Source of the DNA: Escherichia coli
Lineage (GTDB): Bacteria; Pseudomonadota; Gammaproteobacteria; Enterobacterales; Enterobacteriaceae
Assembly: GCF_016903815.1 (NCBI RefSeq)
Contig: NZ_CP069973.1
Strand: one strand, 5' to 3'
Length of the DNA stretch: 64,000 nucleotides
The position numbers are program-made. This document shows positions 53,101 to 56,100 of this stretch, piece after piece (within the stretch, counting starts at the first letter, position 1; each line of letters starts with the position of its first letter).

Positions 53101-56100
53101 CCGCTGCCACACCGCTTTTGGCAAATAGTCCGGTTTTACTGGCGGCGTCTAACAGATTGTTATCCAGCCCCAGCACCACATCGGCTTTACTATTTTTGCC
53201 TTCCATCCGTAGACGGTTGAGAAGCGAAACGCCATCTTCCAGCGCCACCAGTTTCAGTTCGCAGTTACAGTCGGCTTCAAAAGCTTTTTTGATCTTTGGA
53301 CCAGGCCCCCAGTCGGCGGCGAAGGAATCGTAGGTATAAACAGTCAGAACGGGTTTAGCGAAAACGGGCGCTGTGCACAGCAACAGCAGGGGAAGACATT
53401 TTTTTAACACTTTGCACCTCAAAAAAGAGTGGCAAAGGACTTGAGAAGGAGCCTCAAATCCCTTCGCCGGCGTTATCCGGATCAGGTTCGACGGGTATTT
53501 TCTCAGCGCACGCGTTTGCGTGGCACCCCGTTGAGAACGGCGTTAGTGTAGTGATTTTGTTATCTACCAGCAATCATGGATCCGGCGGCGCAAACCACGC
53601 TGATTTAAAATCGAACCAGCCGAGGGTATTCATACGCAGGCCGCGCATACTGCGTTGTCCCTGAATGATCAGCCAGTGGTGGATAAGCGGCACCATTGCT
53701 TTACTGGCGACCAGTTGCTGGCACCAGTTCGCCAGGTTCATTTCGCCATTGCGCCAGCGGGCGGCGTCGGCTTGCCAGTCGATCGGAATACAGTGTTGGA
53801 GCAGCGGCACCTCGCACAAGTGCGCGAACAGCGAAAAATCCAGCGGCAGCGTAAAGTTGGCGCTATTAAGCCAGATATCGCTCTCGATCTCTCCTTCATG
53901 CCACTGATCGTAGCTGATCTCTTTGATTTCCAGCGTGACCTGGTGACTTGCCAGAATCTGCTGCATGATCCCGGCAATCACCCGATGCTCACTGTGATCC
54001 TGATAAAAGGTCAGGGTGAGGCTTTCCAGGCCAGCCGGTTTTTCGCTCTTTATGGTGCGGGCATGGTGCCAACGGGGGAGCAGTCCATAAGCCGGGAACC
54101 ACAGTTGCTGGTACTGTTCCTCAGCGAAATAGACCAGATTAGTTGGAGAAAGCACATAGCTTACCCAGTCCCTGACTTGCTGATTCGCCCCGCGATGGGT
54201 GCGGCTGTCGAACAGTAAATAGTAGCAACCTTCCTCCAGGCGGCTTTCAATCTCTTTTTCCTCGCCCTGTGGACCTTTTAGCATCAGACCTCCAGCTGGC
54301 TCGTCGGCAATTTCCGGCAGAACCCAGACGTTAACTTCATCGATTAATGCCCGGTAACCGAAGAAGTCATCGAATGCCTGAATTTTCAGTTGATTGGTGG
54401 TGTTGCGGATCACCGCATACGGACCGGTGCCGATGGGATGGCTGGCAAAGTTACTGAGGGTTTCCCATTCGCGCGGCAGGATCATCGCCGGAACTTGTCC
54501 CAGCAGTAACGGTAACCAGCGGTCCGGTTGCGTGAGATGGATATCCAGCGTCCAGGGCGTCGGCGACACAATGTCCGCAATATGCGAATAGAGCGGCAGC
54601 GTATTGATTCGTTTTAAAGAGGCGATCACGTCGTCCATTTCCAGTTCACGACCATGATGAAAATGGACTCCTGGACGCAAAAAGAAACGCCAGTGAAGCG
54701 GTGATATTTGCTGCCAGTGGTGGGCGATGTCTGCTTCCAGTTCCCCATTTTCCTCATTTATGCGCGTTAGCGAACTGAAGATTTGCCGGGCAATATGGGT
54801 TTCGGAACGGCGCAATGCGCTGCCAGGTAGCAGATTACGCAACGGACGATAGTAGAGCACGCGCAGGATGTGCCGCCCCTGGCGGAAGCTGCGGCCCAGA
54901 TGAGAAACCAGCATTTGCCGCACAGTCGCTTTGTCGCCAACCAACTGCACTAGTTGGTCGATACGATCCTGCTCCAGCAGGTCTTCCGCCCGCTGTTGCT
55001 GAAGCGCCAGCCCGGTATAGAGGAATGTCAGACGCGAGCGTTTACCGCGCCCGACTTCCGCTTCCCACGTCAGCCAGCCGCGATCCTGCATGGTGTTGAG
55101 CAGGGTACGCATATGACGACGCGAGCAGCTCAATAACGCTGCCAGTTCGTTGAGCGTTGTGTCCTGCGATTTACCCTCGCAGCATTGCCACAGGCGGATG
55201 AACTGTTGTTGCAGACGAGCAGATGGCATAAAAGGGGAACTCCTGCGCAAAAGACAGCAATTTTATTTTCCCTATATTAAGTCAATAATTCCTAACGATG
55301 AAGCAAGGAGGTGCCCCATGCGTCAGTTTTATCAGCACTATTTTACCGCGACAGCGAAGTTGTGCTGGTTGCGTTGGTTAAGCGTCCCACAACGATTAAC
55401 CATGCTTGAAGGACTGATGCAGTGGGATGACCGCAATTCTGAAAGTTGACTTGCCTGCATCATGTGTGACTGAGTATTGGTGTAAAATCACCCGCCAGCA
55501 GATTATACCTGCTGGTTTTTTTTATTCTCGCCGCGCTAAAAAGGGAACGTATGATCTGGATAATGACGATGGCTCGCCGTATGAACGGTGTTTACGCGGC
55601 ATTTATGCTGGTCGCTTTTATGATGGGGGTGGCCGGGGCGCTACAGGCTCCTACATTGAGCTTATTTCTGAGTCGTGAGGTTGGCGCGCAACCTTTCTGG
55701 ATCGGACTCTTTTATACGGTGAATGCTATTGCTGGGATCGGCGTAAGCCTCTGGTTGGCAAAACGTTCTGACAGTCAGGGCGATCGGCGAAAACTGATTA
55801 TATTTTGCTGTTTGATGGCTATCGGCAATGCGCTATTGTTTGCATTTAATCGTCATTATCTGACGCTTATCACCTGTGGTGTGCTTCTGGCATCTCTGGC
55901 CAATACGGCAATGCCACAGTTATTTGCTCTGGCGCGGGAATATGCGGATAACTCGGCGCGAGAAGTGGTGATGTTTAGCTCGGTGATGCGTGCGCAGCTT
56001 TCTCTGGCATGGGTTATCGGTCCACCGTTGGCCTTTATGCTGGCGTTGAATTACGGCTTTACGGTGATGTTTTCGATTGCCGCCGGGATATTCACACTCA

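What the first reader, a model, noticed from the sequence alone, without database searches (positions are those of the whole stretch)
55297..55523. Dual-function sRNA locus: sgrS with an intact sgrT ORF
The SgrS region contains both the base-pairing seed (AGTATTGGTGT) and an uninterrupted 43-codon SgrT frame. The six-frame track shows SgrT only as the tail of a longer 99-aa frame, so automated calling could mis-annotate it.
Basis: partly seen in the sequence, partly recalled or inferred. Interest (0 to 1): 0.3.

Follow-up and report, generated by a model that had tools for sequence, protein, structure and literature searches.

The report
Known E. coli sgrS/sgrT locus
This is the well-studied E. 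coli small RNA SgrS, which silences the glucose transporter mRNA by base pairing and also encodes the 43-residue transporter inhibitor SgrT; it is intact here, already annotated in public genomes, and ordinary.

Summary
Rfam's SgrS model matches window 55297-55523 (+) end to end (230.7 bits, E 7e-65). These coordinates correspond exactly to sgrS (b4577) of E. coli K-12, and the 43-codon frame at 55318-55449 corresponds to sgrT (b4662) with an identical peptide. The seed AGTATTGGTGT occurs once, at 55473-55483. SgrS nt 167-187 pair with the ptsG ribosome-binding site (-27.1 kcal/mol; 6 of 20,000 random pieces do as well).

An open 43-codon frame is not significant by itself, since 8.7% of shuffles have one. 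Coding is supported by Pfam SgrT (E 3e-13) and by pN/pS of 0.31 in frame against about 1.1 out of frame across 28 species.

The 99-aa frame is real but mechanical. It starts upstream of the transcription start and is not conserved. NCBI's PGAP pipeline calls the 132-nt sgrT correctly.

The only point beyond the textbook is that the window has A, not G, at RNA position 13. This gives a consensus Shine-Dalgarno sequence (AAGGAGGU) and removes the K-12-specific hairpin that blocks sgrT translation. That allele is the majority form (3348 of 5399 complete genomes) and was noted in 2009.

Verdict: already known, low interest.

The parts
55297..55523 (+). sgrS, a 227-nt Hfq-dependent small RNA (dual-function transcript)
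   Evidence: Full-length Rfam RF00534 match, 230.7 bits, E 7e-65. Same coordinates as K-12 b4577. One base differs from K-12.
55305..55312 (+). sgrT Shine-Dalgarno sequence AAGGAGGT (RNA nt 9-16). Position 55309 (nt 13) is A here and G in K-12.
   Evidence: Read from the sequence. The difference from K-12 is shown. The K-12 hairpin GGGGGTGCCCC occludes the ribosome-binding site (PMC2760806 section 19). In the window it reads GGAGGTGCCCC.
55318..55449 (+). sgrT CDS, 43 codons plus stop, encoding the PtsG glucose-transporter inhibitor
   Evidence: Translation. Pfam PF15894 SgrT, E 3.3e-13, 49.6 bits against a cut-off of 27. Identical to K-12 b4662. pN/pS 0.31 in frame against 1.15 and 1.10 in shifted frames.
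55458..55483 (+).
   Evidence: Nt 167-187 pair with ptsG -29..-8 at -27.1 kcal/mol, matched by 6 of 20,000 random pieces. This 26-nt block is identical between two E. coli alleles whose surrounding 3' half differs by 26% (P about 0.004). It is invariant in 29 of 29 aligned homologs, though 14 of the 26 bases were fixed by the search pattern.
55479..55492 (+). Small stem-loop GGTGTAAAATCACC just upstream of the terminator
   Evidence: Present in both the minimum-free-energy and centroid folds.
55494..55523 (+). Intrinsic terminator: 8-bp stem with 7-nt loop, followed by a U8 tail (Hfq-binding 3' module)
   Evidence: Terminator scan, fold and Rfam consensus helix. The review places the Hfq-binding domain at the terminator hairpin (PMC4021124).
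55270..55289 (+). Conserved sgrS promoter block CCCTATATTAAGTCAATAAT, with a -10-like AATAAT at 55284-55289, 7 nt before the +1 G at 55297
   Evidence: Read from the sequence. The same block precedes GATGAAG in Yokenella, Atlantibacter and Siccibacter loci. Horler & Vanderpool report that the -10 element and upstream activating sequences are conserved. The SgrR site itself was not mapped here.
53574..55229 (-). sgrR, the divergently transcribed activator of sgrS
   Evidence: NCBIfam NF010149 SgrR equivalog, 1127.8 bits. Pfam SgrR_N plus SBP_bac_5. Coordinates come from the K-12 and PGAP annotation. The mechanical ORF list extends the frame to a TTG at 55250.
55551..56729 (+). setA, a sugar efflux transporter gene 28 nt downstream of the sgrS terminator
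   Evidence: TIGR00899 sugar efflux transporter, 602 bits. Annotated as setA.
55150..55449 (+). The 99-aa mechanical frame (TTG start); not a gene
   Evidence: Listed. Its start lies 147 nt upstream of the sgrS +1, antisense to sgrR codons. The Pfam match covers only residues 59-93. In 19 of 29 species an in-frame stop lies within 15 codons upstream of the SgrT ATG.

Best explanation
This is the E. coli sgrS-sgrT locus, a dual-function small RNA. When sugar phosphates accumulate, the divergently encoded regulator SgrR activates the sgrS promoter and a 227-nt RNA is made. Its 3' part (nt 162-187, helped by Hfq bound at the terminator and U-tail) pairs with the ribosome-binding site of ptsG mRNA and with other targets, blocking translation and triggering mRNA decay. 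Its 5' part is an mRNA for the 43-residue SgrT, which binds the PtsG (EIICB-Glc) transporter protein and blocks glucose uptake. What I showed here: the identity of the locus, the intact frame with its Shine-Dalgarno sequence, the coding signature, the ptsG complementarity, the terminator, and the synteny with sgrR and setA. What is taken from the literature on K-12 and Salmonella: induction by SgrR, Hfq dependence, target decay and PtsG inhibition. What is inferred: this allele has A at nt 13, so it lacks the K-12 ribosome-binding-site hairpin and probably makes more SgrT than K-12 does.
For: Full-length Rfam SgrS match. Base-for-base correspondence to K-12 sgrS and sgrT, with one nucleotide difference and an identical peptide. 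Pfam SgrT above its cut-off. SgrR equivalog upstream on the opposite strand and setA downstream. SgrS nt 167-187 pair with ptsG -29..-8 across its Shine-Dalgarno sequence at -27.1 kcal/mol, matched by 6 of 20,000 random pieces. Terminator plus U8 tail. Of 36 enterobacterial sgrS loci, 31 keep an SgrT-like frame (29 complete ORFs, one divergent, one cut by the locus edge). The complete ORFs are preceded by GA-rich Shine-Dalgarno-like sequences. The substitution pattern in the frame is that of a coding sequence: pN/pS 0.31 against 1.15 and 1.10, and third codon positions are the most variable at 0.312 against 0.184 and 0.183. The seed is perfectly kept inside a 26%-diverged segment. For mechanism, see PMC4021124, PMC12612679, PMC3901232 and PMC2760806.
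Against: Nothing contradicts the identification. There are caveats on function in this strain. No expression data exist for it. In K-12, SgrT made from the native allele was undetectable. In both alleles the predicted full-length fold buries the AUG in a long-range helix, with P(unpaired) 0.07-0.10. The predicted accessibility gain from A13 is only about 1 kcal/mol on the full-length RNA, and 3-4.5 kcal/mol on nascent fragments. NCBIfam has no model that matches SgrT.
Confidence: 0.97

Rival explanations
1. The RNA works only as a base-pairing regulator in this strain. The sgrT frame is open and conserved but contributes negligibly because it is barely translated, as reported for K-12.
For: In K-12, SgrT-3xFLAG was undetectable and base pairing alone accounted for rescue (PMC2760806). 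The predicted long-range helix sequesters the AUG in this allele too, with P(unpaired) 0.07 in the full-length fold. That helix is kept in 29 of 29 homologs.
Against: The K-12 defect was traced to the GGGGGTGCCCC hairpin, and this window lacks it (GGAGGTGCCCC). The Shine-Dalgarno sequence here is the consensus AAGGAGGU. The local opening cost is 2.8-4.5 kcal/mol lower on 40-100-nt nascent fragments. Purifying selection on the frame implies the peptide matters in the lineage.
Confidence: 0.2
2. The real coding sequence is the longer 99-aa frame (55150-55449), and the 43-aa call is a truncation.
For: The frame is uninterrupted from a TTG at 55150, and it stays open for 67 codons upstream of the ATG in Escherichia species.
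Against: Its start lies 147 nt upstream of the sgrS 5' end as annotated in K-12 and defined by the Rfam match. It runs through the promoter and antisense to the first codons of sgrR. Pfam similarity is confined to residues 59-93. In 19 of 29 species an in-frame stop lies within 15 codons upstream of the ATG. A consensus Shine-Dalgarno sequence sits 5 nt before the internal ATG.
Confidence: 0.01
3. The sgrT frame is a chance open frame in a non-coding RNA, and its apparent conservation only reflects conservation of the RNA sequence.
For: 8.7% of shuffles of the 227 nt carry an ORF this long. Within E. coli, the two alleles differ at 8 sgrT codons and 7 of those changes are non-synonymous. Some lineages (Atlantibacter, Yokenella) have sgrS without sgrT.
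Against: pN/pS is 0.31 in frame against about 1.1 in the other two frames, and third positions vary most. The frame is open in 28 of 28 core sequences, while the shifted frames carry stops in 28 and 13 of 28; note that this set was chosen for having the motif. Length changes keep the frame. Published experiments show functional SgrT from several species.
Confidence: 0.02

Closest known systems
E. coli K-12 MG1655 sgrS (b4577) / sgrT (b4662)
   Same: Same length (227 nt), same position between sgrR and setA, identical SgrT peptide, identical seed, terminator and promoter block; 226 of 227 nt identical.
   Different: RNA nt 13 is A here and G in K-12. This changes GGGGGUGCCCC to GGAGGUGCCCC, so the K-12 hairpin that inhibits sgrT translation cannot form and the Shine-Dalgarno sequence becomes AAGGAGGU. 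The window's form is the majority: 3348 of 5399 genomes, against 1421 with the K-12 form.
E. coli setA-less sgrS allele (CFT073/O157 type; e.g. strain LS4, L002)
   Same: Identical over sgrS nt 1-115 including A13, identical 26-nt base-pairing block, and an intact 43-codon sgrT in most carriers.
   Different: 29 differences in nt 116-227. The SgrT tail is EELMQWEGSHSDY instead of EGLMQWDDRNSES. There is no setA, so leuD follows sgrS directly. O157:H7 additionally has ATG changed to ATT at the sgrT start.
Salmonella enterica SgrS/SgrT
   Same: Same architecture (5' sgrT, 3' seed, terminator), the same CTGAGTATTGGTGT seed, and setA downstream. It lacks the K-12 hairpin, as this window does.
   Different: SgrT is 40 aa. 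The terminator sits further from the seed. Salmonella SgrT is experimentally shown to be well produced and sufficient for rescue, which has not been shown for this E. coli allele.
Other dual-function sRNAs (AzuCR, SR1/SR1P, RNAIII)
   Same: One transcript carries both a base-pairing regulator and a small ORF (PMC12612679; PMC8915982, listed).
   Different: They are unrelated in sequence. In SgrS the ORF and the seed are physically separate (20 nt apart), and both act on the same transporter.

Membership tests
SgrS RNA (Rfam RF00534) | Covariance-model score at or above the family's gathering score, over the full length | tested here: met
   230.7 bits against 37; model positions 1-232 of 232; E 7e-65
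SgrS RNA (Rfam RF00534) | Divergently transcribed from sgrR | tested here: met
   SgrR equivalog NF010149 on the minus strand, ending 67 nt from the sgrS +1
SgrS RNA (Rfam RF00534) | Conserved 3' region complementary to the ptsG translation-initiation region | tested here: met
   Nt 167-187 pair with ptsG -29..-8 at -27.1 kcal/mol; 6 of 20,000 random pieces as good; 8-nt exact core ATACTCAG. The ptsG sequence came from K-12, not from this strain.
SgrS RNA (Rfam RF00534) | Rho-independent terminator with poly-U tail (Hfq-binding module) | tested here: met
   8-bp stem plus U8. Hfq binding itself cannot be tested with these tools.
SgrS RNA (Rfam RF00534) | SgrR-dependent induction by glucose-phosphate stress | not testable with these tools
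   Only the conserved promoter block and -10 element were seen
SgrT (Pfam PF15894) | Profile score at or above Pfam's gathering score | tested here: met
   49.6 bits against 27, E 3.3e-13, residues 3-37. NCBIfam holds no matching model.
SgrT (Pfam PF15894) | Complete ORF in the 5' part of SgrS with an ATG and a Shine-Dalgarno sequence, upstream of the seed | tested here: met
   ATG at 55318, AAGGAGGT 5 nt upstream, stop 20 nt before the CTGAGTATTGGTGT block
SgrT (Pfam PF15894) | Frame evolves as a coding sequence | tested here: met
   pN/pS 0.31 in frame against 1.15 and 1.10 in shifted frames; 28 distinct core sequences
SgrT (Pfam PF15894) | Peptide is translated and inhibits PtsG | not testable with these tools
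   Shown for K-12 and Salmonella proteins in the literature. The peptide here is identical to K-12's.
K-12-type sgrT translation-inhibitory hairpin | Inverted repeat GGGGGUGCCCC over the sgrT ribosome-binding site | tested here: not met
   The window reads GGAGGUGCCCC. The hairpin is absent from the fold of the 40-nt 5' fragment, whereas the G13 version forms it.

The most novel reading that the evidence does not exclude
The window carries the majority E. coli allele (A at nt 13, 62% of complete genomes), which lacks the K-12-specific ribosome-binding-site hairpin. Most natural E. coli may therefore make physiologically meaningful amounts of SgrT, and the K-12-derived view that SgrT contributes very little in E. 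coli would be a lab-strain peculiarity. Horler & Vanderpool foreshadowed this in 2009 (hairpin in 3 of 15 strains). I found no direct measurement in the papers I read.
Probability: 0.5. Interest if true: 0.25.

Novelty: already known. Interest (0 to 1): 0.07.

Why it matters
It matters little as a discovery. SgrS/SgrT has been the model dual-function bacterial sRNA since 2007, and this copy is annotated in thousands of genomes. The useful results are negative or confirmatory. The first-stage call is accurate to the base. The 99-aa frame is an artefact of mechanical ORF listing. An open frame alone would not have been evidence, but the comparative coding signal is. The one practical point is that sgrT translation signals differ among E. 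coli strains: 62% carry the consensus Shine-Dalgarno form, 26% the K-12 hairpin, and about 6% the O157 ATT start. K-12 results on SgrT output should therefore not be transferred to this strain without a test.

Tried and rejected
- Searches failed because I was one base off on the sgrT start; corrected.
- Unrestricted RNAduplex of whole SgrS against a 170-nt ptsG piece gave a meaningless whole-molecule duplex that was no better than random pieces. I replaced it with a bounded 22-nt against 45-nt test.
- NCBIfam gave no hit for SgrT. That library has no model that matches, which is not evidence against.
- Picking the longest ORF that starts in the first 60 nt chose a wrong frame in several Citrobacter loci, using the ATG at RNA nt 2. 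I replaced it with frame choice by homology.
- A strict regex missed SgrT in Siccibacter turicensis, C. braakii (locus cut short) and a MAG. An HMM built from the hits recovered them.
- The covariation test of the helix that buries the sgrT start codon was inconclusive. The helix is kept in 29 of 29 homologs but has no two-sided changes, and its 3' arm also encodes the conserved LMQW motif.
- The simple sigma-70 scan put a -10 at 55273-55278, which is too far from the +1. The conserved AATAAT at 55284-55289 fits better.
- Lloyd et al. 2017 (PMC5424253) is not held in the library, so the SgrT mechanism is cited from reviews and from Kosfeld & Jahreis 2012.
- I did not use the large protein searches, structure prediction or the metagenome scan, because the answer did not need them.

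Full report
**What is there**

The window is E. coli chromosome; position 1 corresponds to about 22,071 of K-12 MG1655. A scan of the whole window against Rfam gives a full-length match to SgrS (RF00534) at 55297-55523 on the + strand. It scores 230.7 bits against a gathering score of 37, E 7e-65, over model positions 1-232 of 232. These are exactly the finding's coordinates.

In the MG1655 record, sgrS (b4577) is 77367-77593 and sgrT (b4662) is 77388-77519. With the constant offset, these map to window 55297-55523 and 55318-55449. The window differs from K-12 at one base within sgrS and three bases within 601 nt.

The neighbours are those expected. sgrR lies divergently upstream (NCBIfam SgrR equivalog, 1127.8 bits), followed by thiB with its TPP riboswitch. 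setA lies 28 nt downstream, followed by leuD and leuC.

**Checking the observation**

- The ATG is at 55318 (my first attempt was one base off). The frame has 43 codons and ends with the stop at 55447-55449. The product is MRQFYQHYFTATAKLCWLRWLSVPQRLTMLEGLMQWDDRNSES, identical to K-12 SgrT.
- The seed AGTATTGGTGT occurs once in 64 kb, at 55473-55483, with none expected.

**Is it more than chance?**

The open frame alone is not. Of 5000 shuffles of the 227 nt, 434 (8.7%) contain a complete ATG ORF of at least 43 codons. Evidence for coding has to come from elsewhere, and it does.

- The peptide matches Pfam SgrT (PF15894) at E 3.3e-13, above the curated cut-off.
- I retrieved homologs with one plain DNA-pattern scan of the species-representative genomes, using the seed plus a downstream T-run. 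This returned 52 loci, of which 36 are genuine enterobacterial sgrS loci.
- Of these 36, 31 keep an SgrT-like frame: 29 complete ORFs, one divergent, and one cut by the locus edge. The complete ORFs are preceded by GA-rich Shine-Dalgarno-like sequences, and SgrT length ranges from 37 to 61 aa.
- Over the 35-codon core (28 distinct sequences), pN/pS is 0.31 in the sgrT frame against 1.15 and 1.10 in the two shifted frames. Mean pairwise difference is 0.184, 0.183 and 0.312 at codon positions 1, 2 and 3.

This pattern indicates a translated sequence, not merely a conserved RNA. One caveat is that the set was selected for having the peptide motif, so "frame open in 28 of 28" is partly circular. 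The pN/pS contrast between frames is not.

**The base-pairing function**

I took the ptsG leader from the K-12 record. SgrS nt 167-187 pair with ptsG -29..-8, covering its Shine-Dalgarno sequence, at -27.1 kcal/mol. Only 6 of 20,000 random 45-nt pieces of the window do as well, and the exact Watson-Crick core is ATACTCAG. An earlier unrestricted duplex calculation was uninformative.

A second, independent sign of constraint comes from within E. coli. About 40% of complete genomes (2158 of 5399) carry a second allele that is identical over sgrS nt 1-115 and then differs at 29 of 112 positions. Even so, nt 162-187 are perfectly identical between the alleles, which has P of about 0.004 under random placement of the differences.

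The 3' end is a canonical terminator, an 8-bp stem followed by U8, preceded by a small hairpin. The review places the Hfq-binding domain there (PMC4021124).

**The 99-aa frame**

It is not a gene.
- Its TTG lies 147 nt upstream of the RNA's 5' end and runs through the promoter, antisense to the first codons of sgrR.
- Pfam similarity is confined to residues 59-93.
- In 19 of 29 species an in-frame stop lies within 15 codons upstream of the SgrT ATG.

PGAP places the 132-nt CDS correctly in the four genomes I inspected, and names sgrT in all 57 rows listed from the four genome searches. MG1655's record carries both features.

The reverse problem does exist in other strains. O157:H7 has ATT in place of the ATG (312 of 5399 genomes share that 60-mer), and the literature says SgrT is therefore not made. 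PGAP nonetheless annotates sgrT with the same protein accession.

**The one point beyond the textbook**

The single difference from K-12 inside sgrS is RNA nt 13 (window 55309), which is A here and G in K-12. It falls in the element that Wadler & Vanderpool showed to inhibit sgrT translation in K-12, the inverted repeat GGGGGTGCCCC over the ribosome-binding site (PMC2760806). In K-12, SgrT was undetectable and contributed little to stress rescue.

Here the sequence is GGAGGTGCCCC. The hairpin is lost from the predicted fold of the 5' fragment, and the Shine-Dalgarno sequence becomes the consensus AAGGAGGU. The predicted cost of opening nt 8-27 drops by 2.8-4.5 kcal/mol on 40-100-nt nascent fragments, but by only about 1 kcal/mol on the full-length RNA.

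Horler & Vanderpool already noted that the hairpin occurs in only 3 of 15 E. coli strains (PMC2760817). With today's genomes, the window's exact 60-mer is found in 3348 of 5399 genomes (62%) and the K-12 form in 1421 (26%). This locus is therefore the common, probably better-translated form. That conclusion is inferred, not shown.

In both alleles the full-length fold buries the AUG in a long-range helix with the region encoding LMQW. The helix is kept in 29 of 29 homologs but has no compensatory changes, and one arm encodes the most conserved peptide motif. It is therefore neither supported nor refuted.

**Mechanism and comparison with what is known**

The literature on K-12 and Salmonella gives the following picture. 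SgrR senses sugar-phosphate stress and activates sgrS. SgrS with Hfq represses ptsG and manXYZ, activates yigL, and regulates further targets. SgrT binds EIICB-Glc and blocks transport (PMC4021124; PMC12612679; PMC3901232).

Every defining sequence feature of SgrS and SgrT that I could test is met, as listed in the membership table. Expression, Hfq binding and PtsG inhibition cannot be tested with these tools.

**Verdict**

The observation and the interpretation are both correct, the locus is already known and annotated, and interest is low.

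Noticed in passing
window 55412-55523 plus setA 55551-56729; compare L002:3313-3460: E. 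coli has two deep alleles of this locus. The window/K-12 type has setA (about 3240 genomes). A second type (2158 genomes) lacks setA, so leuD follows sgrS directly. The two are identical for sgrS nt 1-115, then 26% different through the 3' end, with the breakpoint inside sgrT codon 32; the SgrT tails are DDRNSES and EGSHSDY. setA follows sgrS in Citrobacter, Salmonella, Enterobacter and Atlantibacter, but not in E. whittamii, Escherichia sp. E1V33 or locus L017. This suggests segment replacement rather than a simple deletion.
   Followed up: partly
L005:438-440 (O157:H7 strain F1273): The sgrT start codon is ATT instead of ATG in O157:H7-type genomes (312 of 5399 share the 60-mer). PGAP still annotates an intact sgrT with the same WP accession as ATG-bearing strains, although the literature states that SgrT is not expressed there.
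   Followed up: yes
L031, L032, L040, L027, L028: Atlantibacter species and Yokenella regensburgei have an sgrR-adjacent sgrS with the conserved promoter, 5' GATGAA, seed and terminator, but no sgrT frame. This adds lineages to the sgrT-less cases already known from Yersinia. L027 is labelled Citrobacter freundii M-21, but its locus is nearly identical to the Atlantibacter ones.
   Followed up: partly
window 55315-55330 paired with 55409-55427: A predicted long-range helix pairs the sgrT start-codon region with the LMQW-coding region. It appears in Rfam's consensus structure and is kept in 29 of 29 homologs by one-sided (G-U) changes only. It could couple translation to RNA structure, or simply reflect peptide conservation.
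   Followed up: partly
window 55298-55381; L014, L022, L039, L042: The conserved 5' end GATGAAG puts an ATG at RNA nt 2. In the window it opens a 27-codon alternative frame. In some Citrobacter species it opens frames of 52-63 codons overlapping sgrT, and in Salmonella it is in frame with sgrT. This is probably chance and was not tested.
   Followed up: no
window 61503-61652 (-), 53441-53540 (-), 7073-7125 (+): Other Rfam matches in the window: the leucine operon leader (145.8 bits), the TPP riboswitch upstream of thiB (66.1 bits), and the ES003 sRNA (87.4 bits, identical to the model consensus).
   Followed up: no
window 55411-55413 (SgrT codon 32): The window and K-12 have Gly at SgrT residue 32 (LEGLMQW). 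In 27 other species the residue at this position is acidic in 25 (Glu or Asp) and Asn in two (LE[ED]LMQW in most). This is a lineage-specific substitution inside the most conserved motif.
   Followed up: no
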